From the NCBI GenBank assembly GCA_947259075.1, contig CAMYKQ010000038.1, positions 18,750 through 82,749 of the forward strand: a stretch of 64,000 nucleotides of DNA, read 5' to 3'. Shown here piece by piece: positions 51,601-64,000 of this stretch. The DNA comes from an uncultured Gammaproteobacteria bacterium (GTDB lineage: Bacteria > Pseudomonadota > Gammaproteobacteria > DRLM01). Position 1 is the first letter of the stretch, and every line of letters starts with the position of its first letter. The notes below the pieces were generated by a model. It was not told where the DNA came from. It saw only the letters and a program-made list of their open reading frames with translations, and made no database searches. A program made the position numbers and the translations under genes.

Positions 51601-54600
51601 GGTGGCGGTGCTGGCGGGATCGACGCCGTAATCCACGCTGACGGGCAGGCCGCTGGCGGCGGAGAGCGTGACGGTGATTAATGCGCTGGGGATATTCTCC
51701 AGCGCATTGCCGCCGGCGGCGGCGAAGGCGGCGCTGGGCGCGGCGTCGTTATCGTTGAGGGTGTAGCTGTGTTGCGGCGTCGCGCCGAGGATGGCGTTGA
51801 CGGGCGCGCTTAAATTGATGACCACGGTTTCGTCGCTTTCGTCCAAGGCGTCGTCGTTCACCGCGAGCGAGATGGCCTTGAGGGTGTCGCCGGGGTTGAA
51901 GGTGAGCGTGCCGCTGGCGAGGGTGTAATCGACGCCGCCGCCGCTGGCGGTGCCGGCGGCGTCGATGCTGTAATTGACGGTGATGATTTGGGTGCTGGCC
52001 GTGGAGAGCGTGACATTGACGCTGACCGGCGTGAAGGCTTCATCGCCGTTGGCGCTGGCGGCGGCGAAGTTGATTACCGCGGTGTCGTTGTCGCTTACGT
52101 TTACCGTGATGTTGGGAATGGCGAGGGCGTTGTAGTTCAAATCCGCGCTCGCGGCGCCGTGGGTGATGCTGGCACTGTGCGGGCCTTCGGCGATGGCATC
52201 GTCGATGGCGATGACGGTGACGGTCTGCGCGTTATTCCAATTGAGCGGAGTGAAGGTGAGCGCGACGGCCGTGCCCGCGCCGGCGCCCAAATCGGCTTGC
52301 GCGTCGGGGGTGACGGTAATGACGACGTTGGCGCCGGGCGCGGAGTCGAGCACCACGGTGTAGCTGTCGCCGGCGCCGCCCTCGCTGGCCGTGGTCGCGC
52401 CGCCGGACTCGTTAAACGTGACGCCGGGCAGATCGTTGTCGCTGATGGACACCACGATATTGGGAATGGCGAGGGCGTTGTAATTTAAATCCGCGCTCGC
52501 GGCGGCGTGGGTGATGACGGCGCCGTGCGGACCTTCGGCGCTGGCGTCGTCGACGGCGGTGACGGTGACGGTCTGCGCGTTGTTCCAATTGAGCGGGGTG
52601 AAGCTGAGCGCGACGGCCGTGCCCGCGCCCGCGCCTAAATCCACTTGCGCATCGGGGGTGACGGTGATGACGACGTTGGCGCTGGGCGCGGAGTTGAGCA
52701 CCACGGTGTAGCTGTCGCTGCCCGGGCCGGTTTCAGCGACGCTGGTGCCGCCGCCGGATTCGCTCAGGGTCACGCCGGGCGTGTCGTTGTCGGCGATGTT
52801 CACCGTGATAGTGGGGATGGCGAGGGCGTTGTAGTTCAAATCCGCGCTCGCGGCGCCGTGGGTGATGGTGGCGCTGTGCGGACCCTCGGCTATCGCGTCG
52901 TCCACCGCGGTGACGTTGACGGTCTGCGCGCTATTCCAGTTGAGCGGGGTGAAGCTGAGCACGACGGCCGTGCCCGCGCCCGCGCCCAAATCCACTTGCG
53001 CATCGGGGGTGACGCTGACGGTGACGTTGGCGCTGGGCGCGGTGTTGAGCACCACGGTGTAGCTGTCGCCGGCGCCGCCTTCGCTGGCCGTGGTGACGCC
53101 GCCGGATTCGTTGAGCGTCACGCCGGGCACGTCGTTGTCGCTGATGTTCACGAGCACATTGGCGATGACCAGGCCGTTGTACGCGGCATCGGCGCTGTTC
53201 GCGCTGTGGGTGATGCTGCTGTTGTGCGGGCCTTCGGCGCTGGCGTCATCCACCGCGGTGACGGTGACGCTCTGCGCAAGATTCCAGTTGAGCGGGGTGA
53301 AGCTGAGCACCACGGCCGTGCCCGCGCCGCCGCCTAAATCCACTTGCGCGTCGGGGGTGACCGTGAGGGTAACATTCGCCGCCGGTTGCGTGGCGAGCAC
53401 TAAGGTGTAGCTGTCGCTGCTCGGTCCGGTCTCGTTGACATTGGTGGCGCCGCCGGATTCGCTGATCGTCACCGCGGCCGCGTCGTTGTCGTTCACGGTG
53501 TAAACCTGTTGCGGGGTGGCGCCGAGGCTGGCGTTGCTGGGATTGGCAAGATCGATCATAACGGTTTCATTGCCTTCGGCGATGAGGTCATCGTTCACCG
53601 CGAGGCTGATGACTTTGCTGGTCTCGCCGGGGTTGAAGGTCAGCGTGCCGTTGGCGAGGGTGTAATCGATGCCGCCGCCGCTGGCGCTGCTGGCGCCGTT
53701 CACCGCGTAATCCACGGTGACGGTTTTACTCGAGGCGGCGGACAAGGCCACCGTGATGTTCACCGGCGTCACGGATTCCGCGCCGCTGGCCGCGGCGGCG
53801 GCGAAGCTCACGCTGGGCGCGGGGTCGTCGTCGGTGATGGTCGCGGTATGCACGGTCGTGCCGCCCGCGAAGGCATTGACGGGCGTGCCCATGGTCACAA
53901 CGACGGTTTCGCCGTCTTCGTCGAGCGCGTCGTTGACGACGGTCACGGTGATATCCGCGCTCAAACTGCCCGCGCTGATAATGAGAGGGCTGGCGGTGAT
54001 GGTGTAATCCGCCGGGTTGTTTGCCGTGCCGCCCAGGGTGAAGGGCAGGCTGACGTTCTGCGCCGAGACTTGTGACAGTTGCGCGGTGATGGTGAGCGTG
54101 CCCGCGTTTTCGGCGCCGCTTTGACTGGCGGCGGTGAAGCTGACTTGCGGCAAGACCGTCACGCCTTGCGTGTTGGCGTCCGCCGCGTCGCCATCGGCAT
54201 TGCCCGCGGTGGTGGCCTGCGCGGCGATAGAGCCGGTGCCGGTGTCGTCGACAGTGGACGTGAAGTTGCCGCTGCCGAGTGCGCCGGGCGCATCCGCGTT
54301 GAAGCTGATCTTGATGTTGGTGCCGGTTACGCTGACCTTGCTCCCCAAGCGGATGGTCATCACTTGTCCCGCGACGCCTGCGCAGTATTCACCCGCGGCG
54401 GGGGCGGGACAACTGCCCGACGCCGTTTGCGCGCCGCCGCCCAGCGATACGCCGGTGACGCTCAAACCGCCATAGCCCGCCGGGGCGGTGATGGCGATTT
54501 GATCGATGCCGGTGTTGCCGGGATTGATAGCGGGCAGTACATCGTAGGTGAAGTTGATGCCGCTGCTGGCGGCCGGTACCGCGGCGGGATCGATTTCAGC

Positions 54601-54780
54601 AACGACCGTGGTGACGGCGGCGTTTTCAGCGGTGACGCTGATTTGTCCCGAGGAGAGCAGGGTGACGCTGCCGCCACCGGGGTCGGTGGCTTCGTTAGTC
54701 GCGGTGCCCGCGCCATGGGCAAAGAGGGACCACAACAGCCCTGCTATGCACAAAAGGCCGGCGCGCATGCGTTGCGGCAT
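45694..54780 (-). CDS. Giant (~3030-3060 aa) secreted multidomain cell-envelope protein. Domain order: signal peptide, DUF11-like N-module, Calx-beta domains, 4 tandem 116-aa repeats, Big_1, DUF11, SdrD-B-like, internal OmpA-like peptidoglycan-binding domain, Ig-like domains, and a ~865-aa C-terminal beta-rich (barrel-like) domain.
   Basis: Probable start MPQRMRAGLLCIAGLLWSLFAHGA (signal peptide). Calx-beta motifs (VNDALDEDGETVVVTM, DDALDESDETVVINL). OmpA-like segment FPEEKVVIEGHTDSIGSDEANLRLSQERAEAAARYL...NRRVEI at about 49130-49430. Alternating-hydrophobic C-terminal 865 aa ending WFLRLQGTY. Confidence 0.8.
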   Translation of the reverse strand: MPQRMRAGLLCIAGLLWSLFAHGAGTATNEATDPGGGSVTLLSSGQISVTAENAAVTTVVAEIDPAAVPAASSGINFTYDVLPAINPGNTGIDQIAITAPAGYGGLSVTGVSLGGGAQTASGSCPAPAAGEYCAGVAGQVMTIRLGSKVSVTGTNIKISFNADAPGALGSGNFTSTVDDTGTGSIAAQATTAGNADGDAADANTQGVTVLPQVSFTAASQSGAENAGTLTITAQLSQVSAQNVSLPFTLGGTANNPADYTITASPLIISAGSLSADITVTVVNDALDEDGETVVVTMGTPVNAFAGGTTVHTATITDDDPAPSVSFAAAAASGAESVTPVNITVALSAASSKTVTVDYAVNGASSASGGGIDYTLANGTLTFNPGETSKVISLAVNDDLIAEGNETVMIDLANPSNASLGATPQQVYTVNDNDAAAVTISESGGATNVNETGPSSDSYTLVLATQPAANVTLTVTPDAQVDLGGGAGTAVVLSFTPLNWNLAQSVTVTAVDDASAEGPHNSSITHSANSADAAYNGLVIANVLVNISDNDVPGVTLNESGGVTTASEGGAGDSYTVVLNTAPSANVTVSVTPDAQVDLGAGAGTAVVLSFTPLNWNSAQTVNVTAVDDAIAEGPHSATITHGAASADLNYNALAIPTITVNIADNDTPGVTLSESGGGTSVAETGPGSDSYTVVLNSAPSANVVITVTPDAQVDLGAGAGTAVALSFTPLNWNNAQTVTVTAVDDASAEGPHGAVITHAAASADLNYNALAIPNIVVSISDNDLPGVTFNESGGATTASEGGAGDSYTVVLDSAPGANVVITVTPDAQADLGAGAGTAVALTFTPLNWNNAQTVTVIAIDDAIAEGPHSASITHGAASADLNYNALAIPNITVNVSDNDTAVINFAAASANGDEAFTPVSVNVTLSTASTQIITVNYSIDAAGTASGGGVDYTLASGTLTFNPGDTLKAISLAVNDDALDESDETVVINLSAPVNAILGATPQHSYTLNDNDAAPSAAFAAAGGNALENIPSALITVTLSAASGLPVSVDYGVDPASTATGGGVDYTLASGTLIFNPGETSKDISLAIIDDADTESNETVVVNLSNPLNATLGAIAQHVHSIDNDDNANAVTAAVGEITPASVVVGATGIAFTFDVLPAINPGDSGVDLLSVTAPTGFMGLAITGFSVNGGALAAACPAPAAGQYCASISGATMSVKLGAKLSASGNLQLRFSANAPLVSGASVFSATVDDSATPAAPQAVSAGDADGDPGDGNGLAVSTVFGVDPLASIVTAQPLIVIADGSAASTLSATLIDTSGLRVPGKTVVFDSDRGALDTITQAGAPTGADGSAIAQIRSNTIGVATLRATDISDNIVLLTQPKVYFTQGRVLDITKLANKDEVVIGDVVTYTLIIKNITDKDVLQVKLHDALPPNFKYVPGSTRLNGALAPDPAGHRPLIFGLGTLLARVDSNGNGSADPGEQGYTTLSYQLIVGAGATPREYVNTVYALDVCDVCYISNNAEARVSVTLDPVFDLGTIIGKVFQDPNRNGKQDQGEKGVSGAMVVLDNGSYALTDEHGRYHFPAVKPGPRALKINLQALDAGAEVTTEEITVVNITPGLLAKANFGVIYQHEVEIIGRAANHGLRAQTELGEKPASVFGSVEMLTALVNGYSLALPNGDIKLGLTSVDDLININSGKLEQPLRLSVNIDSKAKVNAWLFTVNNAAHQTVRTLRGEGAPPPVIEWDARDDHGDLLEGGEIYEYQLELDYADDGVARSARRLVGVNRSSAIAVNLTGGAFELGSSQLSPAARQALRESSALLLRFPEEKVVIEGHTDSIGSDEANLRLSQERAEAAARYLMEEEDIPRERLVVRGFGSRRPMASNGLPEGRELNRRVEIKGLVGKVETISVTDQYRAEPGAVINGKTLPLQGGGVFQTQIEPASATEFDIQLTSAQDKSSLARIAVPSLNLPAGEVRVPYGARDDEQGYYADARDVVARAAPEEIVMGFRLHGRTEPGNIVQLDDRRLPVEAAGRFAADIKLKQGVNFFTLLLRNEANFTRVVDLKVKVSARDENGALYLLVQPVPRLAVNFPPKDAALTSPVLVVSGATEPGNKVSVNAKEVALQDDGRFSTTVTLPLGHSSIEVNVSDPAGNSGRISRDIEVRDSKLFLLAFADGKIGQMQAKGYVQGAGMDGASQFYSEGRIAYYLKGVIAGKYLVTSAFDSGTNELGDMFKDLDRAENDRLLTNIDPDKLYPVYGDDSTVVYDSESSGKFYLAVDSDELHAVIGNYPVNFTDTELATYQRTLFGGRLAYQSLARTQYGAPDTQVAVFSAAVRQMHVRDELRATGGSLYYLSHGDIIEGSEQVTLVVRDKDTGLVLSRQPQQQNTDYNIRYVEGRILFTRPLASTQADSRLVDRALLGGNPVSIEVDYETEAAFFEKSASGGRVRQQLNDHVAIGGTYVQDEGAAGQYQLQGLDTEIRLGKGTRLLAEMAQSEGSDGQSFYSDDGGLSFKETTPLDTSSGQAWKLAAEMDIGEWFGQANRYRMGAYMKRLGPGFISNGNSSEISSEKSGLNMSLQVSERDKVLLRQDQEKILSASGDSESSTTTAQLRHAAERWSATAEYQQKETSNAATGINDSSLMAAELRLRVTEKLTASIEQQFTLSGADNDQTGIGVDYSLSSALTLKAKGISGSLGQAAELGAEFNLDGNRLYLTQRLSRDMQNNGRNTTIVGAQSPLGRDGKVYSEYQWEVADQGDRNVSLIGAEQKWRLRRGLQLLLAAELGKIQAASGGSDRYAIATGLSYSHPRGLSASTRNELRRESGVQEREQFLSTNSAELKLDPDYTLLGKYRYSLSRDLDNDVVEAEFEESSLGLAYRPVASDRFNALARYTRQADQRPLSLGAGDMQNISRDIASIEWSLELTPALEWVDKLALRMKEERAGGRPSIATTTFLSINRLNYRIRPRIDLGAEYRLLSQQETDDQRQGWAADVMWRAMEHVRVGGGYNFTDFSDSEFSDNDYSVHGWFLRLQGTY
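52074..53475 (-). repeat. Four near-identical in-frame tandem repeats (~348-351 bp, 116-117 aa each) inside the giant gene.
   Basis: Protein units VT(I/L/F)(S/N)ESGG...TVTPDAQVDLGAGAGTAV.LSFTPLNWN.AQTVTVTAVDDA.AEGPH...ITH.A.SAD.NYNALAIPNI.VNISDND. The periodicity is also visible in antisense ORFs at 52163, 52511, 52862 and 53213. Confidence 0.85.
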
Positions 54781-54959
54781 GCGTGGATCGCCCATGGCGT
54801 GACGACTTCGCACTATGTGCTCATCGACGTTGCTGACATCGGGAACTAAGACGAATTCACGCGGGCCTGCGTGCAAACGCGGACGCGCGCCGTGGCGCGC
54901 CGTGCCCTAGCGTGAAATCATCCGAGCCGTGCCGGCATGTAAGCCGGCAAGGCCCGGTC

Positions 54960-55571
54960 TTAGTTCTTGACCGCCTGGAACATCAGCGCGAAGGTCTTGT
55001 TGGCGCCCAAGCTGACGCTGCTGTTGGCCTGACCCGTTACCGCGCCCACCGTGATGGTGCCCGCCACATGGGAGGCGAAGTCATCCGGAGCGCCGAGGGC
55101 GTCGGTTTGCGCCGTGCCGCCGTTAGCCGCGGTATAGAGGTTGGCGATGGTGGCGTTGTCGGCTTGAGCCGAGTCGTATTTCAGCGAGGCCGCCGTGTAG
55201 GTAAAGCCGGTGCCGCTGGTATCCAAGACGTCTTGGAAGCGGACGTCGGTCAAGGCGATCGCCGTGGCGTTACGCACGAAGATCATGAACTTGAGCGGTG
55301 TGCCGACCGGGACGGTCACCGAGGTGGCGCCACCGTTACAGCCGGCATCCGTCGGACTGCTGGCCAAGCAATTGCCGCTGGCGTCGTAGACTTGTTTCAC
55401 CAGCGCGAGCTGCGTGGAATTGACGGTAACGTTGCCTGATCCCGTCAAGCTCACGCCGCCGCCGCCCGGGTCGGTGACCGCGTTGGTGGCCGCCTGCGCG
55501 CCGAGCGTGAACAGGCTGGACAGCAAAGACAGCCCTATGACTAGGGATAGGCGCTTGAATAAAAATTTCAT
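54960..55571 (-). CDS. Small secreted DUF11-domain protein.
   Basis: Signal peptide MKFLFKRLSLVIGLSLLSSLFTLGAQA. LALVKQV...KFMIFVRNATAIALTDVRFQDVLDTSGTGFTY fits the DUF11 pattern. The mature N-terminus ATNAVTDPGGGGVSL is shared with the giant protein (ATNEATDPGGGSVTL). Confidence 0.65.
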   Translation of the reverse strand: MKFLFKRLSLVIGLSLLSSLFTLGAQAATNAVTDPGGGGVSLTGSGNVTVNSTQLALVKQVYDASGNCLASSPTDAGCNGGATSVTVPVGTPLKFMIFVRNATAIALTDVRFQDVLDTSGTGFTYTAASLKYDSAQADNATIANLYTAANGGTAQTDALGAPDDFASHVAGTITVGAVTGQANSSVSLGANKTFALMFQAVKN

Positions 55572-56333
55572 CTTCGTCTCCTCAATAAAACGGACCTATT
55601 GATCTGGGCCGCAGCCGGTCCGCTGAGCGGCTGCGCCAGGTGTTGGCCATCCTTTGCCGGTGACTTTCATGTCGTGACATTTCCTGAGCCCCTTCCAGGG
55701 CTGGACTTTTTTGGCGAGGACAAGAGCTTGAGCGAACGCGAACGCGTTATGACGGCGGGCGGAAGGGATGAGATTGCCCAGATAAACTGTGAGAGTGCTG
55801 TGTGGGTACTGCTTCGTTAGCACTGTTTGCTCAACTCGTTGTTCCCCGTACCCCTCGGGTGCTGCTCATAAAGCCAATCCCACTAAAATTACAAATCAAG
55901 TCGTTATGGTTTTTCGTGAGGCATGCTTGGGCCGGCATCGCGCGCTAAAGCGATGTGCCGGGGATTACAACTTGGTTTTGCCAAGCGGTAAGGCCGGTGC
56001 TTAAAACATGAACTCCGTCATGGAAAGATGTCGGCAGCAGGGGGGATTAATTGAGTGAAGTATGCAGGGGGTTGCTGGGGAGCGTATCTGCATAAGGCCG
56101 AAGTGAATTGAGGGCGCCATGCCACGGCTTAGCGTATTGGGGTAACGGGTTTGCGCGCGGGGGGCACCCCCCGCACCCGGAAAAATATTTGCCCGTCCGG
56201 CGGAAATACAGCCGTGCCGTATGGGGAGTAAGGCCGCCCTGCCGTGGCGGCTTGATGCGGTGTATTGCTGGGATGGTGGGTGCGGCGGTGCGGGCGTCAA
56301 TGCTTGCCGCGGCGCGTTCGACATCTTTTGAGC

Positions 56334-57257
56334 TTATCGCGGCGCGAATGTTTCGTAACTGTGTTCGATGAGGGCGCCGCTGGTCGCGCCATGCTCGGGA
56401 AAGGTGGCAAACCCCGCGATGATGATGACATGCCCGGTGGCAAAGGTTTCCTGTCCCGGGAACGCGTGCTGGTTGATTCTTGCCGTCAATCTATCGAGAA
56501 GCGCCAGCGCGCCGTCGATATTGGTTTCAGGCAGCAACAAGGCGAATTCGTTGTCAGCGTAGCGCGTCAGCGTGTCGGAAGTGCGGATGAAATTGTGCAA
56601 GAACTTACCCAGCGAATAAAGTAATAAATCACTGGCTTTGCTGCCATGCTGGGCTTGATAAGCGCTGAAATCCATGATGCCAGTAATGACCACGGAAAAC
56701 TTGCGTTCATAGCGTTGTGAACGGGAGAGCTCCATGGCCAATATTTCGTGAAAATGTTTTTTGTTGTGCAGTCCGGTGAGTTCATCGATGGTGGCGAGCC
56801 GGTGCAGCTTGCGCGTGACGTTATTCAGCCCGTCGGCGTGTTGTTTTACTCGGTCCGATAATAAGCGATTATCGTGCATCAGCTGGTATTTTTCCGCGGC
56901 GCGTTCGATGACGGTGACGATGATGCCGCTTTCGTCGGTGGGCACGGTAACGCAATCATAGGCGCCCGCTTCCAAGGCATGTTTGGCGATATTCAGCTGT
57001 ACGCGGTGTACGACCGCCACGGTTTGGGTGTTCGTTGAGCGCAAACGGACGTCTTGGATCAGGCGCAGGCCGCCCGCGCTGTCGCGCGTGGTGTTGATCG
57101 CGATAACCGCGAACTGAGTTTTTCTCAACATGCTCAGGGCTTGGGCCGCGTCCGTGGCGCGCATCACGTTGTGTCCGCGCTGGGTGAGCGCCGTGGAGAT
57201 TGAGCTGGCGACGGTTTCTTCGTCGTCGACAATGAGGATGTGCGCTGGATTGGACAT
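56334..57257 (-). CDS. Degenerate REC-GGDEF protein: pseudo-receiver and catalytically inactive GGDEF with a retained I-site.
   Basis: Receiver-like N-terminus ILIVDDEE, but the phospho-acceptor position reads VIAIN (Asn, not Asp) and the conserved Thr and Lys are lost. GGDEF motif replaced by RYADNEF. RTSD I-site retained. Confidence 0.7.
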   Translation of the reverse strand: MSNPAHILIVDDEETVASSISTALTQRGHNVMRATDAAQALSMLRKTQFAVIAINTTRDSAGGLRLIQDVRLRSTNTQTVAVVHRVQLNIAKHALEAGAYDCVTVPTDESGIIVTVIERAAEKYQLMHDNRLLSDRVKQHADGLNNVTRKLHRLATIDELTGLHNKKHFHEILAMELSRSQRYERKFSVVITGIMDFSAYQAQHGSKASDLLLYSLGKFLHNFIRTSDTLTRYADNEFALLLPETNIDGALALLDRLTARINQHAFPGQETFATGHVIIIAGFATFPEHGATSGALIEHSYETFAPR

Positions 57258-57288
57258 TCAGTCGTTACATTTGTAAATATTGTTTGGG

Positions 57289-58281
57289 TTATAGGTCATG
57301 GCTGTAGCCGGTCACTTTGTTGCGTCCTGAGCGTTTGGCGCTATACAGGGCCTTGTCGGCCTTTTCGATAAGGATGCCGGGTTCGTTGCCGTCATCGGGG
57401 AAGTTGGCCAATCCGATGCTGACGGTGATCTTGCCGCCGGGTTGGCATTCTCCCCCGTAGAACGCATGTTCCGCGATATGCTGGCGAAGATTGTTGGCCA
57501 AGATTAAGGCGCCGTCCTTCGTGGTTTCAGGAAGAATCAATACGAACTCCTCCCCGCCGTAGCGGGCCACGGTGTCGGATTGGCGCAGGCGATGGCTGAA
57601 TATGTCGGCCAGATTTTTTAATAGCTCGTCACCTTGCGGATGACCGTGAGTGTCGTTGTAGTGCTTGAATTGATCGACATCGATGAAGAGCAAGGAATAT
57701 TGGCGCTTATGGCGCAAGGCGCGCGCGTGCTCGATGCCGATGGCTTCGAAAAAATAGCGGTGGTTGTAGAGGCCGGTCAGACCGTCCTTAACCGCCAGTT
57801 CTTGCAAGACGTGATTGACCTTTTCCAGTTCGACATTGTGTTTTTTCAGGCGGCTGACCAGCAGCTTGTTGTCATGAATAAGCCGGATTCGTTCCACGCT
57901 GCGATTAATGACATTGGTCACGATCTCGAATTGTTCGAAAGGTTTAATCAGATAATCAGTCGCGCCGGCGCGCAGGGCGCACACCGCCGAATGCAGGGAG
58001 GCGTAGCTGGTTATGATGATGACTTGGGTGTCGGGCTCGCTGGCCTTGATTTTCTCCAGCACCTCCAGTCCGCTGATATTGGGCAGGCGGATATCGACCA
58101 GCACCAGCGGGTGGCGCCCTTGTTCGAATAAGGCTAAAGCGTGTTCGCCGTCGGCGGCCGTGGTGACTTTGTGGCCTTCATCCGTCAAGAGTTCTTCGAG
58201 GACGTTGCGCAGGCTTTCTTCGTCATCGATCACTAAAATATCGATACCGGAACTCATGTCATTATGGCCGGCATTATTCAT
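57289..58281 (-). CDS. Response-regulator diguanylate cyclase (REC-GGDEF).
   Basis: LVLVDIRLP receiver Asp. RQSD I-site. RYGGEEFVLILPE. Confidence 0.85.
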   Translation of the reverse strand: MNNAGHNDMSSGIDILVIDDEESLRNVLEELLTDEGHKVTTAADGEHALALFEQGRHPLVLVDIRLPNISGLEVLEKIKASEPDTQVIIITSYASLHSAVCALRAGATDYLIKPFEQFEIVTNVINRSVERIRLIHDNKLLVSRLKKHNVELEKVNHVLQELAVKDGLTGLYNHRYFFEAIGIEHARALRHKRQYSLLFIDVDQFKHYNDTHGHPQGDELLKNLADIFSHRLRQSDTVARYGGEEFVLILPETTKDGALILANNLRQHIAEHAFYGGECQPGGKITVSIGLANFPDDGNEPGILIEKADKALYSAKRSGRNKVTGYSHDL

Positions 58282-59279
58282 TTTTTTGGCGAAGACAGGC
58301 CGGGGTTCGAAGTCTCGGCCTTGATGACTTGATTTCGCCCCGATTTTTTTGCCTTGTAAAGCGCTTGGTCGGCTTGGTGAAGTACGCTGGAAGCGTCGTC
58401 GCCGTCTTCCTTGAAGGTTGAGACGCCGATGCTGGCCGTGAGTTTGCCGCCAGGCTGAGTTTCTCTGCCCGCGAAGGGATGATTCTCAACTTCTTCTCTG
58501 ATGCTTTCCGCCAGGATGGTGGCGCCTTCCTTGCCGGTTTCCGGCAGTAAGAGCACGAATTCCTCGCCGCCATAGCGCGCGGCGATATCGGAGGTGCGCA
58601 AGCGCTCGCGCAGCAGCTCGCCGAGCTTATGCAGCAACTGATCGCCCAAGGGGTGTCCATGGGTATCGTTGTACTTTTTGAAATAATCCACGTCGATAAA
58701 GATGAGTGAGAAGGGACGCTGGTGGCGCCGCGCGCGGGCGACTTCCATGGTCAGGGTTTCTTGAAAATAACGGTGATTGTACAGTCCGGTGAGGCCGTCG
58801 CGGATGGCGAGCTCCCGCAATACTTGGTTGACGTTTTCGAGTTCATTGTTGTAACTCTTGAGTTTCTCCACCAGCTGCTTGTTTTCGATGACGAGACGGA
58901 TTTTCTCGGTGGCGCGATTGACCACCGCGGAGATCAGCTCCAAGTCTTCAAAGGGTTTTATTAAATAGTCATAAGCGCCGGCGCGCAGCGCGTTCAAAGC
59001 GGTGTCGAGCGAGGCGTGGCTGGTCATGATGACGACTTGGGTCTCCGGATTTATTTCTTTAATTTTATTCAGAAGATCGATGCCGCTCATGCCGGGCATG
59101 CGGATGTCGGTGATGACCAGGACATAGTGGGATTGCGTGAAAAAGGTCAGCGCCTCTTCCGCGCTGGCTGCCGTGGTAACCGGATAACCGTCGTCGGTCA
59201 GCACCTCATGCAGTACTTCGCGCAGGCTTTCTTCGTCGTCCACGACGAGGATGGGCAGTGAATTCTTTTCACTCATCAA
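58278..59279 (-). CDS. Response-regulator diguanylate cyclase (REC-GGDEF), paralog of the downstream gene.
   Basis: VLVITDIRMPGMSG. RTSD I-site. RYGGEEFVLLLPE. 4-bp overlap with the next gene. Confidence 0.85.
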   Translation of the reverse strand: MMSEKNSLPILVVDDEESLREVLHEVLTDDGYPVTTAASAEEALTFFTQSHYVLVITDIRMPGMSGIDLLNKIKEINPETQVVIMTSHASLDTALNALRAGAYDYLIKPFEDLELISAVVNRATEKIRLVIENKQLVEKLKSYNNELENVNQVLRELAIRDGLTGLYNHRYFQETLTMEVARARRHQRPFSLIFIDVDYFKKYNDTHGHPLGDQLLHKLGELLRERLRTSDIAARYGGEEFVLLLPETGKEGATILAESIREEVENHPFAGRETQPGGKLTASIGVSTFKEDGDDASSVLHQADQALYKAKKSGRNQVIKAETSNPGLSSPKK

Positions 59280-59454
59280 GTCAGCCTCTTTACACGTGCC
59301 GCATCATTGCGGGCTACGAAAGGCGCCGCGGTGCTAGACGCGTTCGACGGCACATTCAGGGTGGACGCATCCATTGATGGATACTTACGTCGGAATAATC
59401 GTCATAATCCGGTATTTCTTGAGTGGGTAAATTCCCGTGGGACGCCAGATCCGT

Positions 59455-61314
59455 TCAGCCCGCGGCGGCGCGCGCGTCAACCTCCTTGGGCGAGACCGTG
59501 GCCGGCAGGGTGATGACGAAGCTGGCACCCTGTCCCGGCTCGCTTTCGATATGAATCTCGCCTTGGTGATCGCGGATGATGCCATAGCTCACCGATAGCC
59601 CCAGGCCGGTGCCTTTGCCGACCGCCTTGGTGGTGAAGAAGGGCTCGAAGATCTTGGCTTGAATTTCCTTGGGGATGCCGGGGCCGGTGTCGCTCACGCG
59701 CACCTCGAGCTTATCGCCGTCCAGCAAGCGCGTGCTCACGGTGACCGAACCGTTCTTGCCGTCCATGGCCTGTTGGGCGTTGATCATTAAATTCATCAGC
59801 ACTTGCTGCAGCTGATTGCCATTACCCATGAATTTGGGCAGGTCCGGCGTGAGCTCTTTGTTGAGCTTGACCTGGTTGATGGTGAGCTGGTGATCGACGA
59901 TGGCGCAGGCCTCGCTTACCACGTTATTGAGCTCGGTGATTTCCATCGCCACTTTTTCCTGACGGGCGAACCTCATGAGATTTTCGATGATCTCCTTGCA
60001 GCGTTTGGTCTCTTTTTCGATGAGACTCAAGTGCCGGTACACGGGGCTTTCCTTGTCGACCTTGCGCATCGACAGTTGCGCGTAGCCGAGGATGCCCGCC
60101 AGCGGGTTCTTCACCTCATGGGCGATACCGGCGCTGAGCTGGCCGAAGGCGGACATTTTTTCCGACTGCACCAGCGCGGCCTGCGCCTGTTTGAGTGCCT
60201 CCTCGCGGCTGTGCAGCTCGGTGGCCATGTGATTGAAGCTGTGGGCGAGCTCACCCATCTCGTCATTGCTGGTGATGTCGACGTGGATATCGAATTTACC
60301 CTGCCCGACCTCGCGGGCGGCGAGGGAGAGCTGTTCCACCGGCCGGGTGATTTGCCGCGACCAAAACAGGCTCATGAGCGCGGAGAGGACCAGCAGACCC
60401 AAGCTGACGCCGGTTAAGTTGTTGAGCAATTCGCGCGCGGTCAAATAGGCGGCGGATTTGGGTATCTGCGTGCCCAGCACCATTTTCGACACCTCGACGC
60501 GGGCGAAGGCGCCCACCATCTCGTTGCCGTTGGCGAGGTATTCCAATGAACTGGCCGCGGTTTGGCCTTTTATCAAAGGTTCCAGCGCGCGCAGGGTGTC
60601 CAAGGGCAGCCAGTCCAGCGGCGCGCGGGCGCTGACGTGTTGCGGCTCGCGGCTGACGAGAATGTTTCCGGCGTTGTCGACGATGAAGATCTCGAACACG
60701 CTGGTGCGGTCCGCCACCCGCAGCAAGGCGTCCATTTTAATGGTGGCGGCGGCGATGACGGGCGCTTCGGTGTCGGTCAAGGCCACCGGCGTGGCGAGGA
60801 CGAAGGCCGGGAGTTTATCGTTGAGGGTGGCATTGAACACGAAAGGCCGTTCCGTGGTGATTTTGTCGAAGGGCAGCGGGTTGGCGTCGCGAAAGGCTTG
60901 CAGGTCTTGTTTGGCGAGCCCCGCGCCCTGCAGGCCGCGGGCGTCGAACACCGTGGCTTGTTCAGTTTTGTTTTGATAGAGCGTGACGGCGATGAATTCC
61001 GGGAAGTCTTCGAACAGACCCTCCAGTAATTTGGCCTTTTCCTGTTGCGGCAGGAAGGGGTCGTACATCACGCGGCCGAAGACCTGTAAGCGCTCGTTAT
61101 ACCCTTGCACGATGGAGTTCACCTCTTCCGCGGCGTGCACCGCCACCAAGGAGGTCAAGTCACGAATATAGGTGCGCTTGTCGCTGTGAAACAGATTGGC
61201 CATGGTGAAGGTGATGACGCTCACCACGATGGTAATCACCACCAGCAAGGACAGCAGGATTTTGAAGCGCAGCGGAATGCGCAGGCCGCGGCGTGGCGTG
61301 GTAACGGCGCTCAT
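59455..61314 (-). CDS. Sensor histidine kinase with a periplasmic (Cache-like) domain, HAMP, HisKA and HATPase.
   Basis: TM1 ILLSLLVVITIVVSVITFTM. ~270-aa periplasmic region. TM2. HAMP. H-box SEKMSAFGQLSAGIAHEVKNPLAGI. G-boxes DTGPGI and GKGTGLGLSVS. Confidence 0.85.
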   Translation of the reverse strand: MSAVTTPRRGLRIPLRFKILLSLLVVITIVVSVITFTMANLFHSDKRTYIRDLTSLVAVHAAEEVNSIVQGYNERLQVFGRVMYDPFLPQQEKAKLLEGLFEDFPEFIAVTLYQNKTEQATVFDARGLQGAGLAKQDLQAFRDANPLPFDKITTERPFVFNATLNDKLPAFVLATPVALTDTEAPVIAAATIKMDALLRVADRTSVFEIFIVDNAGNILVSREPQHVSARAPLDWLPLDTLRALEPLIKGQTAASSLEYLANGNEMVGAFARVEVSKMVLGTQIPKSAAYLTARELLNNLTGVSLGLLVLSALMSLFWSRQITRPVEQLSLAAREVGQGKFDIHVDITSNDEMGELAHSFNHMATELHSREEALKQAQAALVQSEKMSAFGQLSAGIAHEVKNPLAGILGYAQLSMRKVDKESPVYRHLSLIEKETKRCKEIIENLMRFARQEKVAMEITELNNVVSEACAIVDHQLTINQVKLNKELTPDLPKFMGNGNQLQQVLMNLMINAQQAMDGKNGSVTVSTRLLDGDKLEVRVSDTGPGIPKEIQAKIFEPFFTTKAVGKGTGLGLSVSYGIIRDHQGEIHIESEPGQGASFVITLPATVSPKEVDARAAAG

Positions 61315-62621
61315 GGGAAGCGTCCTTGCACCAGTTGCGAGCGAAAGCTGACATTGCCGGCGGGGTCCAGGGCTTGCACCACCAGCACATTGCTGCCGCT
61401 CTCCAATTCGAGCTCATATTCGAAGTCGCCGTCGGCCCGCGGGGTGACCGGCTTGCCGGCGATCAGCAGCCGTGCGCCGGGCTCGGTGTGGCCGCGCACT
61501 CTTTGTTTGGACTCAGTGGTGATAGCCGGAGGAAATTCCACGCTCAGCAGCGGCGGGTCGGTGTCGCGCACTAATTCGAAGGCGCGCGCCGCGCTGGGCG
61601 GGCTTTCCGCCAAGGACGTCAGGCCGCTGACCCGCCAATAGTATTTCCCCGGCTTTAAATTGCCGTGAGTGTAGTGTTTCTCGGCGAGCGTGGTGGAGAT
61701 CACGATGTTGCCGAAGGCGGGATCGCGCGCCAGACTGAAATGAAAACGTTCCGTTTTTTCCTTCGTGTCCCAGCGGAATTGCACTTGCGGCGCTAGATCG
61801 CGGTAGTAATACACGCTGGCGTCGCCGGGTGCCGTGGGCAGCGGCGCCTTGGGCGGGGTGATGGCGCGGGTCGCCACGCCCGCGTCGCTGATGGTGGCGG
61901 CTTGATTGGCTTCGATGCGCAAGGCTTTGCCGCTGGCGGTGAGTAATTCCGCCATGCCGCTGAACACCGCGAGGGTGGATGTGTTATCGGGATTCACGGT
62001 GATCTTGAAGTCGGTCTCGCCCCGCGCCGCGGCGGTGGAGCTTAGCCGCGCCACGCCGTTGGGCGTGGCGACTTCCAAATGAATCGCGTCGCCGCTACTG
62101 GCCGTGAGTGTGCCGGACAGTTCGCCGTCCACCGCCATGGAGAAGGCGCGCCGGCCGCGCAATATAGGATCGCTTTCCATGCGGCGTATCACCACCAGCG
62201 AGTTCTCGCCCAGTTGCAGACGGTTATTTTCATCGAAGGCGATGACCGCCGTGGCGCCTTTCTGTGTTTGCACGGCGTCGCGATCGCGCAGCGCCATGCC
62301 GGCTTGGGCGTCGCGCCAGGCAATGGCGTCGGCCTGTTTGCTTTTCACCGTTTGCTGCGTGGTGCTGAGGGTGGCTACCACCGAGCTCGCATCGCCCAAA
62401 TGACCGTCCGCGCCGGGTCCCGACACCAATATATCCCGTCCGCCGGCGCCGCCGCGCGCCGCGCCCTTATCGCCGCGCATCAGGTCTTGGAAGCCGGTGC
62501 CGAGGGGAAAGAAGGTTTGCATCATGCCGAGGATGATGGCAAAGAAAACCAGCACCAAAACGATCGCGGCGACCGTTTCGGCGGATTTCGCCATAGCTGA
62601 CTTTAGCCGTCCAGGCACCAT
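61311..62621 (-). CDS. Membrane-anchored FecR-domain protein with a C-terminal Ig-like domain.
   Basis: N-terminal TM AAIVLVLVFFAIILGMM. FecR-like segment AVIAFDENNRLQLGENSLVVI. C-terminal beta-sandwich-like RVRGHTEPGARLLIAGKPV...ALDPAGNVSFRS. Its stop overlaps the HK start (ATGA). Confidence 0.7.
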   Translation of the reverse strand: MVPGRLKSAMAKSAETVAAIVLVLVFFAIILGMMQTFFPLGTGFQDLMRGDKGAARGGAGGRDILVSGPGADGHLGDASSVVATLSTTQQTVKSKQADAIAWRDAQAGMALRDRDAVQTQKGATAVIAFDENNRLQLGENSLVVIRRMESDPILRGRRAFSMAVDGELSGTLTASSGDAIHLEVATPNGVARLSSTAAARGETDFKITVNPDNTSTLAVFSGMAELLTASGKALRIEANQAATISDAGVATRAITPPKAPLPTAPGDASVYYYRDLAPQVQFRWDTKEKTERFHFSLARDPAFGNIVISTTLAEKHYTHGNLKPGKYYWRVSGLTSLAESPPSAARAFELVRDTDPPLLSVEFPPAITTESKQRVRGHTEPGARLLIAGKPVTPRADGDFEYELELESGSNVLVVQALDPAGNVSFRSQLVQGRFP

Positions 62622-62807
62622 GTTGTTGCGCAGTCCTCGTCATCGCTAAGCACAAGCGTTTGTCCCCAATAAAATTTCGGTCTCTCGGGGGAGAACTTGA
62701 GCCGGGGCGGGACGGTGGGCGGGGCTGCGCTCGCCCTTGGTTTATCAGTGGTTAAAACAAGGGTTTGCGAGGCTCGCGGTGCGGAGGCGATCGCCGGGGG
62801 CCGGCGT

Positions 62808-64000
62808 TTAGCCGGCGTTCAGACGGTTCTCGACGTGGGCCTCGTCGCGCAGGCGGGTCAGCCAGGTTTGGAGTTCTTCGTCTATTTTGCGCTGGCGCAG
62901 GGCCTCGCGCGCCTGGCCGCGCATGAGGTTGGCGGTGTTGTCGTGACGGCGCCGCTCCAGCACTTGCACGATGTGCCAGCCGAAGTTGCTTTTAAAGGGC
63001 TGGCTGATCTCGCCCTCGCCCAAGACATTCATCGCTTTTTCAAAGTCCGGGGTCATGTCGCCGGGATTGGCCCAGCCCAGGTCGCCGCCGTTGGCCGCCG
63101 AGGCGGTGTCGTCCGACAGTTCCCGCGCCAGTTGCGCGAAATCCGCGTCCTGTTCGAGGCGGGCCCGCGCATCACGCAGCTGTTTTTCCGCGGTGCCGTC
63201 GCTGGTCATTTCGTCGGGGCGGATGAGGATGTGGCGGGCGTGGGTTTGGGTGACGATCTGGCGCTGGCCGTTACGTTTATCCAGTAATTTGATGATGTGA
63301 TAGCCGCTGGCGCTGCGGATCACGTCGCTGACGCCGCCCTTGTCCATGGCCGTCACCGCTTCGGTGAACAGGGTCGGCAGTTCCGCGAGCTTGCGCCAGC
63401 CCAGGTCGCCGCCTTCCAAGGCTTGCTGGCCGTCGGAGACCGCGATCGCGGTTTCTTGGAAATCGGCGCCGGCGCGCAGATTTTTTAGCGTGTCCTCCGC
63501 CTTTTCGCGCGCGGCGCGCAGGCGCTCGGGAGAGGCGGCGTCGGGCACGGCGATGAGGATATGGGCGAGATGGAATTCTTCGCCGGCATTGCCCTGCGCC
63601 TGCTGGGTGGCGAGGAAATTGTCGATTTCTTGTTCGGAGATGGTGACGCGGTCGGCGATTTGGCGCTGTTGCACGCGGCTGATGAGGATTTCCTTGCGAA
63701 TGTCTTCGCGGAAGGTGGCGAAGTCATAGCCGTCTTGCTCCAGCACGGCGCGGAATTCGCTGAGGCTCATGCGGTTTTCCTCGGCGATGCGGGCGATGGT
63801 GCGGTTGAGGGTTTCGTCATCCACCCGCACCCCGGAGCGCTCGGCCAATTGCAATTGCAGGCTGGCGAGGATCATGCGGTCGAGCACCTGTTTTTCCAGC
63901 ACGGCCTGCGGCGGCATGGGCGCGCGCTGTTGCTGCAGCTGTTGTTTGACGGTGCGCAGGCGGTTATTCAATTCGCCGCGGGTAATCACGTCGTTGTTGA
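62808..64000 (-). CDS. surA: Periplasmic chaperone / peptidyl-prolyl isomerase SurA. N-terminal part lies beyond the window end.
   Basis: Two parvulin domains (HILI..P...; GGDLGW...FGWHI). Aligns with E. coli SurA from about residue 40 onward. The frame stays open to position 64000. Confidence 0.85.
   Translation of the reverse strand, partial: NNDVITRGELNNRLRTVKQQLQQQRAPMPPQAVLEKQVLDRMILASLQLQLAERSGVRVDDETLNRTIARIAEENRMSLSEFRAVLEQDGYDFATFREDIRKEILISRVQQRQIADRVTISEQEIDNFLATQQAQGNAGEEFHLAHILIAVPDAASPERLRAAREKAEDTLKNLRAGADFQETAIAVSDGQQALEGGDLGWRKLAELPTLFTEAVTAMDKGGVSDVIRSASGYHIIKLLDKRNGQRQIVTQTHARHILIRPDEMTSDGTAEKQLRDARARLEQDADFAQLARELSDDTASAANGGDLGWANPGDMTPDFEKAMNVLGEGEISQPFKSNFGWHIVQVLERRRHDNTANLMRGQAREALRQRKIDEELQTWLTRLRDEAHVENRLNAG

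What the first reader, a model, noticed from the sequence alone, without database searches (positions are those of the whole stretch)
57289..62621. FecR-domain protein translationally coupled to a periplasmic-sensor HK feeding two tandem paralogous REC-GGDEFs
- FecR-like proteins normally partner ECF sigma factors. Here there is no sigma gene; the FecR ORF overlaps (ATGA) a classical HAMP-HisKA kinase, which overlaps tandem response-regulator diguanylate cyclases (about 55% identical, likely a local duplication).
- This would be an unusual rewiring of a cell-surface-signalling sensor into a two-component/c-di-GMP output.
Basis: partly seen in the sequence, partly recalled or inferred. Interest (0 to 1): 0.55.

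Follow-up and report, generated by a model that had tools for sequence, protein, structure and literature searches.

The report
FecR-like co-sensor, kinase and c-di-GMP module
The genes are real and form a conserved, uncharacterised signalling cassette in which a membrane-anchored periplasmic FecR-like protein, a sensor kinase and c-di-GMP-making response regulators sit beside a giant outer-membrane protein; it is not a rewired iron-type sigma regulator.

Summary
Observation partly confirmed. Four minus-strand genes lie at 57289-62621:
- a 436-aa membrane-anchored periplasmic protein;
- a 619-aa dCache-HAMP-HisKA-HATPase kinase, overlapping it by ATGA;
- two REC-GGDEF regulators, 59% identical and also overlapping by ATGA.

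- The kinase does not overlap RR1; a 178-nt gap separates them.
- The FecR Pfam match is below threshold in this protein (21.8 vs 24 bits). It is backed by the family (14 of 17 relatives match) and by a fold match to an anti-sigma periplasmic domain.
- A third, doubly degenerate REC-GGDEF lies just outside the coordinates.

The protein is not a FecR-type sigma regulator. It has about 16 cytoplasmic residues, no DUF4880, no FecR_C, and no ECF sigma gene was found in the 64-kb window. FecR-domain partners of non-sigma sensors (CHASE2 kinases and cyclases) are already described.

What is new is the cassette itself. FecR-like protein, then kinase, then REC-GGDEF is kept in every contig long enough to judge, from Gammaproteobacteria, a Geomonas MAG and unnamed metagenome contigs. 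It usually sits beside a giant OmpA/β-barrel repeat protein, and here it lies between surA and pdxA.

Likely function: an envelope- or surface-linked signal drives c-di-GMP synthesis. I rate it a new variant of a known kind, of moderate interest.

The parts
61311..62621 (-). FecR-like/FN3/Ig co-sensor candidate (436 aa). About 16 cytoplasmic residues, one TM helix, a disordered linker (42-78), a β-domain (83-253) with a weak FecR match, an FN3-like domain (261-352) and a Glucodextran_B-type Ig domain (359-433).
   Evidence: Pfam. AF2 model with pLDDT 82.2. Foldseek hit to 4m0n, a putative anti-sigma factor (E 7.8e-6, TMt 0.51), among many tandem Ig/FN3 hits. Hydrophobic N-terminal segment. Family alignment A1.
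59455..61314 (-). Sensor histidine kinase (619 aa): TM1, a periplasmic dCache domain (about 45-295), TM2, HAMP (319-368), HisKA with invariant H399, and HATPase_c (498-606). It overlaps the upstream gene by ATGA (61311-61314).
   Evidence: Pfam. Homologues carrying PF02743 (dCache_1). AF2 model of residues 1-322 with pLDDT 91. Foldseek top hits are dCache ligand-binding domains (E about 1e-10, TM up to 0.68). Invariant H-box. TM segments.
59277..59454 (-). A 178-nt non-coding spacer between the kinase and RR1. A Shine-Dalgarno-like AAGAGG lies 8 nt before the ATG.
   Evidence: Sequence. No Rfam match. No minus-strand promoter- or terminator-like site inside it. Not conserved at DNA level in related loci.
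58278..59276 (-). RR1, the core REC-GGDEF diguanylate cyclase response regulator (332 aa). It has D13/D14, acceptor D57, T85, K107, I-site RTSD (227-230) and GGEEF (236-240).
   Evidence: The exact 332-aa product from the ATG start is a called gene in the public collection. Identity to the single or first regulator in other loci is 61-71%.
57289..58281 (-). RR2, a paralogous REC-GGDEF (330 aa) with all catalytic and phospho-acceptor residues intact. It overlaps RR1 by ATGA.
56334..57257 (-). RR3, a doubly degenerate REC-GGDEF (307 aa). Acceptor Asp is Asn, Thr is Val, Lys is Val, GGEEF is ADNEF and substrate-binding Asn is Gln. The I-site RxxD (RTSD) is kept. It is a candidate c-di-GMP-binding effector or modulator.
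   Evidence: The same degeneracy appears in the positional orthologue of L001 (N, ADNQF, RVSD).
54960..55571 (-). Small secreted DUF11/CLIPPER-like protein (203 aa) with a Sec-type signal peptide. The motif following its predicted signal peptide is shared with the giant protein.
   Evidence: Weak DUF11 hits. 44% identity over 57 aa to the N-terminus of the giant protein. The same small-plus-giant gene pair occurs in L003, L005 and L007.
45694..54876 (-). Giant envelope protein (ORF 3060 aa; likely start near 54795). It has a signal peptide, 4 Calx-β domains, Big_1, SdrD_B, an OmpA peptidoglycan-binding domain (1828-1923), a Glucodextran_B Ig domain (2114-2192) and a conserved 868-aa C-terminal domain ending ...GWFLRLQGTY.
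   Evidence: Pfam. The C-terminal 1268 aa is 50% identical to the L005 giant protein. The C-terminal domain has at least 603 homologues, and the distant ones carry OMP_b-brl, Porin_4 or DUF2490. Its Ig domain is 35% identical to the C-terminal Ig of the FecR-like protein.

Best explanation
This is a conserved envelope-linked two-component/c-di-GMP cassette.

Proposed mechanism:
1. The 436-aa protein is anchored in the inner membrane by one N-terminal helix. It projects a FecR-like β-domain, an FN3-like domain and an Ig domain into the periplasm.
2. It acts as an accessory co-sensor of the dCache-HAMP histidine kinase encoded by the overlapping gene.
3. A periplasmic or envelope cue changes kinase activity. 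The cue most likely relates to the genetically linked giant protein, which has a peptidoglycan-binding domain and an outer-membrane barrel.
4. The kinase autophosphorylates on His399 and transfers phosphate to Asp57 of RR1 (the core regulator kept in all loci) and to RR2.
5. Phosphorylation promotes WspR/PleD-type dimerisation, and the GGEEF sites make c-di-GMP under RxxD I-site feedback.
6. RR3 can be neither phosphorylated nor catalytic but keeps the I-site. It reads c-di-GMP or modulates RR1/RR2.

Shown: the gene structure, the domains, the intact or degenerate residues, and the conserved linkage.
Inferred: physical contact between the FecR-like protein and the kinase, phosphotransfer, the nature of the signal, and the role of RR3.
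For: Gene order:
- FecR-like then kinase is kept in all 11 informative contigs: the window, L001/L002, L003, L005, L006, L007, two ENA contigs without DNA, L008, L010 and L014.
- The two genes overlap by 1-4 nt in four gammaproteobacterial loci (window, L001, L003, L008). Gaps elsewhere are 11-131 nt.
- At least one REC-GGDEF follows in every contig long enough to show it.

Breadth of the family:
- The Geomonas neighbour is a full-length homologue of the FecR-like protein (hhalign probability 100%, 33% identity).
- About half of the top 150 representatives at 50% clustering are full-length proteins of about 430 aa.

Link to the giant protein:
- The cassette keeps its link to a giant OmpA-domain protein in 7 contigs, in two different gene orders.
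- The giant protein and the FecR-like protein share the same Ig domain type.

Sensor and kinase:
- The kinase sensor is a dCache fold.
- Residues next to the membrane are the conserved ones in both partners: F38/P39/G41 in the FecR-like protein and M38...D45 K46 Y49 D52 L53 in the kinase.

Kinase-regulator match:
- They belong to matching subclasses. The kinase's best NCBIfam hits are AtoS and ZraS. The receiver domains match NtrC, AtoC and ZraR.
- RR1 and RR2 have all REC and GGDEF catalytic residues. RR3 lacks them but keeps RxxD, as does its orthologue in L001.
Against: - No direct evidence of protein-protein contact or phosphotransfer.
- A 178-nt gap separates the kinase from RR1, so they need not be co-translated or even co-transcribed.
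- dCache domains usually bind small ligands by themselves, so the kinase may not need the FecR-like protein.
- The FecR match in this protein is below Pfam's threshold, and the family shows no significant similarity to E. coli FecR.
- One contig (ENA KSe-6340) lacks an adjacent giant OmpA protein. It has a ShlB-type transporter gene nearby instead.
- The context sample is small (11 contigs) and was not drawn at random.
Confidence: 0.6

Rival explanations
1. The FecR-like protein is an assembly, anchoring or quality-control factor for the giant outer-membrane protein. It is only co-expressed with the kinase. The kinase senses a small molecule through its dCache pocket, independently of the FecR-like protein.
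For: The FecR-like protein shares an Ig domain type with the giant protein and is linked to it in 7 contigs. The top structural matches of the dCache domain are ligand-binding chemoreceptor domains.
Against: The FecR-like gene is always immediately upstream of the kinase, even where the giant gene lies on the other side or is not seen (L001, L008, KSe-6340). In four gammaproteobacterial loci the two genes overlap by 1-4 nt. Where the gene order differs between loci, FecR-like, kinase and regulators stay together as one block.
Confidence: 0.2
2. Information flows the other way (inside-out). The kinase senses a ligand and the regulators make c-di-GMP. That signal controls display, retention or assembly of the giant protein, through RR3 and possibly the FecR-like protein, as in the Lap system.
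For: RR3 is a conserved degenerate GGDEF with an intact I-site, as expected for a receptor. The giant repeat protein resembles adhesins: Calx-β, Big_1 and SdrD_B domains. Tandem-Ig structural matches of the FecR-like model include the adhesin SiiE and the ice-binding adhesin.
Against: RR3 is absent from loci with a single regulator (L003, L007, L014). No LapD/LapG-like genes or PilZ domains were seen among the cassette genes. The FecR-like protein has almost no cytoplasmic part to receive a cytoplasmic signal.
Confidence: 0.12
3. This is a true FecR-type anti-sigma / cell-surface-signalling regulator whose ECF sigma and TonB-dependent transducer are encoded elsewhere.
For: A weak PF04773 match and a Foldseek hit to a Bacteroidales putative anti-sigma periplasmic domain.
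Against: Only about 16 residues precede the TM helix, and the ORF cannot be extended upstream. There is no DUF4880 and no FecR_C, whereas the E. coli FecR control has both. No ECF sigma was found in the 64 kb. hhalign against E. coli FecR gives probability 0.7%.
Confidence: 0.03
4. The adjacency is incidental. The kinase is an orphan whose cognate regulator lies elsewhere, and the REC-GGDEFs are served by another kinase.
For: A 178-nt gap separates the kinase from RR1.
Against: Kinase then REC-GGDEF is kept in every contig long enough to show it, across distant lineages, with gaps from 15 to 215 nt. The kinase and receiver subclasses match.
Confidence: 0.05

Closest known systems
FecR/FecI/FecA cell-surface signalling (E. 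coli FecR; PupR-type sigma regulators)
   Same: A single-pass inner-membrane protein with a periplasmic β-domain that matches PF04773. The match is weak here but clear in relatives. It is genetically linked to an outer-membrane β-barrel protein, so a trans-envelope relay is conceivable.
   Different: There is no cytoplasmic anti-sigma domain (DUF4880), no FecR_C, no ECF sigma and no TonB-dependent transducer. FN3 and Ig domains are present instead. The output is a histidine kinase and c-di-GMP.
COG4254 LysM-FecR proteins next to CHASE2 histidine kinases (Burkholderia 'BiofilmReg' operon; a related two-gene operon in P. aeruginosa PAO1) - PMC5192318
   Same: A stand-alone periplasmic FecR-domain protein encoded immediately upstream of a sensor kinase, without a sigma factor. 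That system has a biofilm-related phenotype.
   Different: There the partner sensor is CHASE2, the accessory protein carries LysM, and the regulator is a CreB-type DNA-binding regulator. Here the sensor is dCache, the accessory protein carries FN3 and Ig domains with a TM anchor, and the regulators are REC-GGDEF.
FecR-domain outer-membrane protein + CHASE2 adenylate cyclase clusters (Campylobacterota, PMC9239204); FecR-domain lipoprotein at the Myxococcus pmxA locus (PMC8844925)
   Same: A FecR-domain envelope protein clustered with a membrane-bound second-messenger enzyme.
   Different: The sensor domain (CHASE2), the messenger (cAMP) or the enzyme (HD-GYP) differ. There is no two-component step.
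WspR / PleD REC-GGDEF response regulators (established knowledge)
   Same: RR1 and RR2 have a receiver domain with a complete phospho-acceptor pocket, a coiled-coil-like linker, a GGEEF active site and an RxxD inhibition site. Their best NCBIfam hits are the PleD family and Leptospira DgcR.
   Different: All equivalog scores are below cut-off (for example PleD 258 vs 474). They have a single receiver domain (WspR-like), not PleD's two. They are fed by a classical kinase, not a chemosensory CheA.
PopA-type degenerate GGDEF c-di-GMP receptors (established knowledge)
   Same: RR3 has lost the GGDEF active site and receiver phosphorylation residues but keeps the RxxD I-site.
   Different: It has a single receiver domain. 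Binding has not been tested, and no known partner is identified.
YfiBNR (OmpA-like lipoprotein YfiB, periplasmic YfiR, membrane cyclase YfiN) and RcsF-IgaA envelope sensing (established knowledge)
   Same: The logic matches: an outer-membrane or peptidoglycan-associated protein communicates through a periplasmic intermediary to an inner-membrane signalling enzyme that controls c-di-GMP or the envelope response.
   Different: No sequence relationship was found. Here the outer-membrane partner is a giant repeat protein, and the cyclases are separate response regulators.

Membership tests
FecR-type sigma regulator (ECF anti-sigma of cell-surface signalling) | N-terminal cytoplasmic anti-sigma domain (Pfam DUF4880) of about 60-80 residues | tested here: not met
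   Only about 16 residues precede the TM helix, and the ORF already starts at the first start codon after a stop. There is no DUF4880 hit. The E. coli FecR control gives DUF4880 at E 3.6e-10.
FecR-type sigma regulator (ECF anti-sigma of cell-surface signalling) | Central periplasmic FecR domain (PF04773) above the gathering score | tested here: inconclusive
   21.8 bits against a cut-off of 24, E 2.6e-4, covering 95 of 97 profile positions. 14 of 17 relatives match, best E 5.1e-9. Foldseek hit to 4m0n at E 7.8e-6. hhalign against E. coli FecR gives probability 0.7%, and there is no FecR or PupR hit in the PDB sequence search.
FecR-type sigma regulator (ECF anti-sigma of cell-surface signalling) | C-terminal FecR_C (DUF4974) domain that contacts the transducer | tested here: not met
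   No hit. The C-terminus is FN3-like plus Glucodextran_B Ig. The E. coli FecR control is positive.
FecR-type sigma regulator (ECF anti-sigma of cell-surface signalling) | Adjacent ECF sigma factor gene and TonB-dependent transducer | tested here: not met
   The neighbours are surA and the kinase. No RpoE- or FecI-like ORF was found in the 64 kb at E<=10. TonB-dependent receptors elsewhere in the window were not searched for.
Stand-alone FecR-domain accessory proteins of non-sigma sensors (COG4254-like) | Periplasmic FecR-domain protein encoded directly upstream of a membrane sensor kinase, with no sigma factor | tested here: met
   ATGA overlap with the kinase. The adjacency holds in 11 of 11 informative contigs.
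Stand-alone FecR-domain accessory proteins of non-sigma sensors (COG4254-like) | LysM domain in the accessory protein and a CHASE2 sensor in the partner | tested here: not met
   No LysM or CHASE2 hits. The partner sensor is dCache.
dCache-HAMP-HisKA-HATPase_c sensor histidine kinase | Two TM helices flanking a double-Cache periplasmic domain; HAMP; H-box histidine; ATPase domain | tested here: met
   Pfam HAMP, HisKA and HATPase_c. TM segments. AF2 pLDDT 91 with dCache Foldseek hits at E about 1e-10. Invariant H399. The protein's own dCache_1 Pfam hit is absent at E<0.01, but homologues carry it.
REC-GGDEF diguanylate cyclase response regulator (WspR/PleD type) | Receiver acidic pocket, acceptor Asp, Thr and Lys; GG[D/E]EF active site; substrate-binding Asn/Asp; RxxD I-site | tested here: met
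   RR1 and RR2 have DD, D, T, K, GGEEF, N, D and RxxD, all present. Enzymatic activity is not testable here.
REC-GGDEF diguanylate cyclase response regulator (WspR/PleD type) | The same features in RR3 | tested here: not met
   Acceptor Asp is Asn, Thr is Val, Lys is Val, GGEEF is ADNEF and Asn is Gln.
Degenerate-GGDEF c-di-GMP receptor (PopA-like) | Inactive A-site with a retained RxxD I-site that binds c-di-GMP | not testable with these tools
   The sequence prerequisites are met (ADNEF with RTSD; the L001 orthologue has ADNQF with RVSD). Binding needs an experiment.

The most novel reading that the evidence does not exclude
The cassette may be a sigma-independent analogue of cell-surface signalling. 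In this reading, the giant outer-membrane β-barrel protein, which binds peptidoglycan and carries long repeats, reports its state (surface contact, load or assembly). It does so through its periplasmic OmpA/Ig region to the Ig/FN3/FecR-like inner-membrane protein. That protein gates a dCache kinase and so triggers c-di-GMP synthesis. This would be an outside-in surface-sensing route, widespread in uncultured Gammaproteobacteria and also seen in a Geomonas MAG.
Probability: 0.25. Interest if true: 0.75.

Novelty: new variant of a known kind. Interest (0 to 1): 0.45.

Why it matters
- FecR-domain proteins without a sigma partner are common, but none has a worked-out mechanism.
- This cassette is a clean, recurrent case. 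It has a defined partner (a dCache kinase), a defined output (c-di-GMP) and a candidate input (a giant outer-membrane protein that binds peptidoglycan).
- If the relay is real, it would show how bacteria couple the state of a huge surface protein to second-messenger signalling.
- It would also assign a role to a large, unannotated protein family of about 430 aa, and to an 868-aa C-terminal barrel-like domain with at least 603 homologues.
- If the relay is not real, the locus is still an ordinary two-component system feeding diguanylate cyclases.

Tried and rejected
- **Genome-collection scan.** A scan with the broad alignment A2 failed because it had no conserved stretch to search with. The narrower alignment A3 found only 2 loci, since the two peptide patterns were very specific. 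It therefore gives no distribution estimate.
- **First word-indexed protein search.** It found only 19 relatives and badly underestimated the family. The exhaustive profile search corrected this. Its total counts (64,760 at E<=1e-3) are inflated by Ig/FN3 repeat proteins and cannot be read as family size.
- **Rfam scan of 54700-62900 at E<=1.** This was aimed at a possible c-di-GMP riboswitch in the 762-nt gap before the small-protein gene. Only a chance IRES match turned up.
- **Promoter and terminator scan.**
  - Promoter-like sites did not exceed the shuffles (2 vs 2.9).
  - No minus-strand site falls in the intergenic gaps.
- **DNA conservation of the spacers.** Only 73 nt just upstream of the FecR-like start are 71% identical to L008. 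The other spacers are not conserved.
- **Sequence links to solved FecR/PupR structures.**
  - The PDB profile search found only glucodextranase Ig and FN3 hits.
  - hhalign against E. coli FecR was not significant.
- **Whole-model Foldseek of the FecR-like protein.** It is dominated by tandem Ig/FN3 matches, and the β-domain could not be searched alone.
- **Hypr-GGDEF (cGAMP) reading, considered and rejected.** The specificity Asp (the PleD D344 equivalent) is Asp in RR1 and RR2.
- **The OmpA-FecR fusion protein P0017.** It sits in an unrelated context and does not inform this cassette.
- **Organism name.** It was not recovered. The cluster look-up gave no names or accessions.

Full report
**1. 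What is in the sequence**

All relevant genes are on the minus strand. In order of transcription:

| Gene | Coordinates | Size | Junction with the next gene |
|---|---|---|---|
| surA | 63989..62808 (runs off the window) | - | 186-nt spacer |
| FecR-like ORF | 62621..61311 | 436 aa | overlaps by ATGA |
| Histidine kinase | 61314..59455 | 619 aa | 178-nt spacer |
| RR1 | 59276..58278 | 332 aa from the ATG | overlaps by ATGA |
| RR2 | 58281..57289 | 330 aa | 31-nt spacer |
| RR3 | 57257..56334 | 307 aa | 762-nt spacer |
| Small secreted protein | 55571..54960 | 203 aa | - |
| Giant ORF | 54876..45694 | 3060 aa | followed by pdxA and rsmA |

- The exact 332-aa RR1 product is a called gene in the public collection.
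- The stated overlap between the kinase and the regulators is not real.

**2. The 'FecR' protein**

Pfam places a FecR match at residues 115-223, covering 95 of 97 profile positions. The score is 21.8 bits, under the gathering score of 24. The only above-threshold hit is a C-terminal Glucodextran_B Ig domain.

At family level the assignment holds. 14 of 17 aligned relatives match PF04773, with a best E of 5.1e-9.

An AlphaFold2 model (pLDDT 82.2) shows these parts:
- a TM helix at residues 5-37;
- a disordered linker at 42-78;
- a β-domain at 83-253;
- an FN3-like domain at 261-352;
- an Ig domain at 359-433.

Foldseek against the PDB is dominated by tandem Ig/FN3 proteins. It also returns 4m0n, a putative anti-sigma factor periplasmic domain from Parabacteroides (E 7.8e-6, TMt 0.51).

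The defining parts of a sigma regulator are absent:
- About 16 residues precede the TM helix.
- There is no DUF4880 and no FecR_C. E. coli FecR, run as a control, has all three domains.
- A family profile against E. coli FecR is not significant (hhalign probability 0.7%).
- No ECF sigma-like ORF was found in the 64-kb window.

So this is a FecR-domain-like periplasmic protein, not a FecR-family regulator.

**3. The kinase**

- HAMP, HisKA and HATPase_c are unambiguous.
- The H-box histidine (H399) and the ATP-binding motifs are invariant among 30 homologues.
- The periplasmic part has no Pfam hit of its own at E<0.01. Homologues that are 40-50% identical carry dCache_1.
- An AF2 model of residues 1-322 (pLDDT 91) matches dCache ligand-binding domains of chemoreceptors and kinases (E about 1e-10, TM up to 0.68).

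**4. The regulators**

- RR1 and RR2 are REC-GGDEF proteins, 59% identical by BLASTP. All receiver residues (DD, D57, T85, K107), the GGEEF site, the substrate-binding Asn and Asp, and the RxxD I-site are intact.
- RR3 is 33-34% identical to them. It is degenerate in both domains but keeps RTSD.
  - The acceptor Asp is Asn, Thr is Val and Lys is Val.
  - GGEEF is ADNEF, and the substrate-binding Asn is Gln.
- The positional orthologue of RR3 in L001 shows the same pattern (N, ADNQF, RVSD).
- The identity matrix shows the paralogues are old. RR1 is 71, 69, 61 and 61% identical to the first or only regulator of L001, L003, L005 and the Geomonas locus L007, but only 57% to RR2. RR2 pairs best with L001_b (59%) and RR3 with L001_c (44%).
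- RR1 is thus the core regulator of the cassette. RR2 and RR3 are later additions that have been retained.

**5. Conservation and context**

Every contig that is long enough has the FecR-like gene directly upstream of a HAMP-HisKA kinase, followed by one to three REC-GGDEF genes:

| Locus | Source | Arrangement |
|---|---|---|
| L001 (same region as L002 and L009) | uncultured Chromatiaceae | LptD, SurA, FecR-like, kinase, three regulators |
| L008 | Gammaproteobacteria MAG | same as L001 |
| L003 (near-identical copy L004) | hydrothermal-vent gammaproteobacterium | FecR-like, kinase, one regulator, small protein, giant OmpA protein |
| L005, L006 | metagenome contigs | L005: small protein, giant protein, FecR-like, kinase, three regulators; L006: FecR-like, kinase, three regulators (contig starts just upstream) |
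| L007 | Geomonas | CLIPPER protein, giant CLIPPER/SdrD_B/OmpA protein, 446-aa protein, kinase, regulator |
| Two ENA contigs | - | comparable arrangements |
| L010 | - | comparable arrangement |
| L014 | - | comparable arrangement |

- The 446-aa Geomonas protein is a full-length homologue of the FecR-like family (hhalign probability 100%, 33% identity).
- The exhaustive profile search shows that about half of the best 150 cluster representatives are full-length, single-stretch proteins of 416-461 aa. The family is therefore large, and it has no curated model.
- The cassette occurs in two gene orders but keeps its parts. That argues for a functional unit.
- In the window, L001 and L008 the FecR-like gene directly follows surA. 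In the window the cassette is followed by pdxA and rsmA, so it appears inserted into the usually contiguous lptD-surA-pdxA-rsmA cluster. That these four genes are normally contiguous is established knowledge.

**6. The giant protein**

- It has a signal peptide, Calx-β, Big_1 and SdrD_B repeats, an OmpA peptidoglycan-binding domain at 1828-1923, and a Glucodextran_B Ig domain at 2114-2192. That Ig domain is 35% identical to the C-terminal Ig of the FecR-like protein.
- Its 868-aa C-terminal domain has no Pfam match and ends in ...GWFLRLQGTY.
- The C-terminal 1268 aa is 50% identical to the L005 protein.
- The 868-aa domain has at least 603 homologues. Distant ones (31-33% identity over the full length) carry OMP_b-brl, Porin_4 or DUF2490. 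It is therefore probably a large outer-membrane barrel.
- The small 203-aa protein and the giant protein share a motif directly after their signal peptides (ATNxxTDPGGG..L..SG..V). The motif is also seen in L003 and L005.

**7. Mechanism**

The best-supported reading is that the FecR-like protein is a membrane-anchored periplasmic partner of the dCache kinase.
- Shown: coupled genes and conserved membrane-proximal motifs in both proteins.
- Inferred: the two proteins make contact.

The kinase would phosphorylate RR1 and RR2.
- Shown: matching NtrB/NtrC-like subclasses and conserved linkage.
- Inferred: phosphotransfer itself.

RR1 and RR2 would then make c-di-GMP.
- Shown: catalytic residues are intact.
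- Inferred: enzymatic activity.

RR3 would bind c-di-GMP through its I-site (inferred).

The signal is most plausibly tied to the giant protein, which has an outer-membrane barrel and binds peptidoglycan. This rests only on linkage and the shared Ig domain type. The rival readings are scored separately:
- the FecR-like protein as an assembly factor;
- inside-out control;
- a true anti-sigma factor;
- incidental adjacency.

**8. Comparison with what is known**

Stand-alone FecR-domain proteins next to sensors without a sigma factor are already documented:
- LysM-FecR with CHASE2 kinases, in the Burkholderia 'BiofilmReg' operon and in P. aeruginosa PAO1 (PMC5192318).
- FecR-domain outer-membrane proteins with CHASE2 adenylate cyclases in Campylobacterota (PMC9239204).
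- A FecR-domain lipoprotein at the Myxococcus pmxA locus (PMC8844925).

None of my full-text searches found this particular cassette: TM-FecR-like/FN3/Ig, a dCache kinase, REC-GGDEF regulators and a giant OmpA/barrel protein.

**9. Verdict**

- The 'rewired sigma sensor' interpretation is overstated.
- The locus is a new variant of a known kind, and it belongs to a sizeable uncharacterised family.
- Interest is moderate at 0.45. It would be higher if the trans-envelope relay proves real.

Noticed in passing
window 56334-57257 (-): A third REC-GGDEF paralogue (RR3) lies just outside the finding. It has lost the phospho-acceptor Asp (Asn), Thr and Lys, and the GGEEF site (ADNEF), but keeps the RxxD I-site. 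The same degeneracy is conserved in the orthologue of L001. It is a candidate c-di-GMP receptor.
   Followed up: yes
window 43805-63989: The seven-gene cassette of about 17 kb (45694-62621) sits between surA and pdxA/rsmA, genes that are normally contiguous (lptD-surA-pdxA-rsmA). L001 and L008 also show LptD, SurA and then the FecR-like gene. In other loci the cassette lies elsewhere, which suggests it moves as a unit.
   Followed up: partly
window 45694-48300 (-): The giant protein ends in an 868-aa domain with no Pfam model. The domain has at least 603 homologues in many phyla. Distant ones carry OMP_b-brl or Porin_4, and the chain ends ...GWFLRLQGTY. It is probably a large uncharacterised outer-membrane barrel placed after an internal OmpA domain.
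   Followed up: partly
window 55480-55571 and 54700-54795 (-); L003, L005: The small 203-aa secreted protein and the giant protein share a conserved motif directly after their signal peptides (A-T-N-x-x-T-D-P-G-G-G...L...S-G...V), 44% identical over 57 aa. The motif recurs in the gene pairs of L003 and L005. It may be a sorting signal or a strand-complementation segment.
   Followed up: partly
window 55572-56333: A 762-nt gap with no convincing gene lies between RR3 and the small-protein gene. The 107-aa ORF at 56324..56001 has no Pfam support and an odd composition. There is no Rfam match, and the DNA is not conserved in related loci.
   Followed up: partly
window 56334-59276: The three regulator genes have lower G+C (0.54-0.56; GC3 about 0.69) than their neighbours (0.60-0.65; GC3 0.77-0.83).
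   Followed up: no
window 62622-62700; L008 8864-8936: The 73 nt just upstream of the FecR-like start codon are 71% identical between the window and L008. This is the only non-coding stretch of the cassette with detectable DNA conservation, and it may be a promoter or 5' leader.
   Followed up: no
window 49500-48301 vs 61311-61600 (-): The Ig domain after the OmpA domain of the giant protein and the C-terminal Ig of the FecR-like protein are the same domain type. Both carry the PPxLxVxFPP...G.TEPG...DG.F...G.N...D.AGN motif and are 35% identical (hhalign probability 96.9%).
   Followed up: partly
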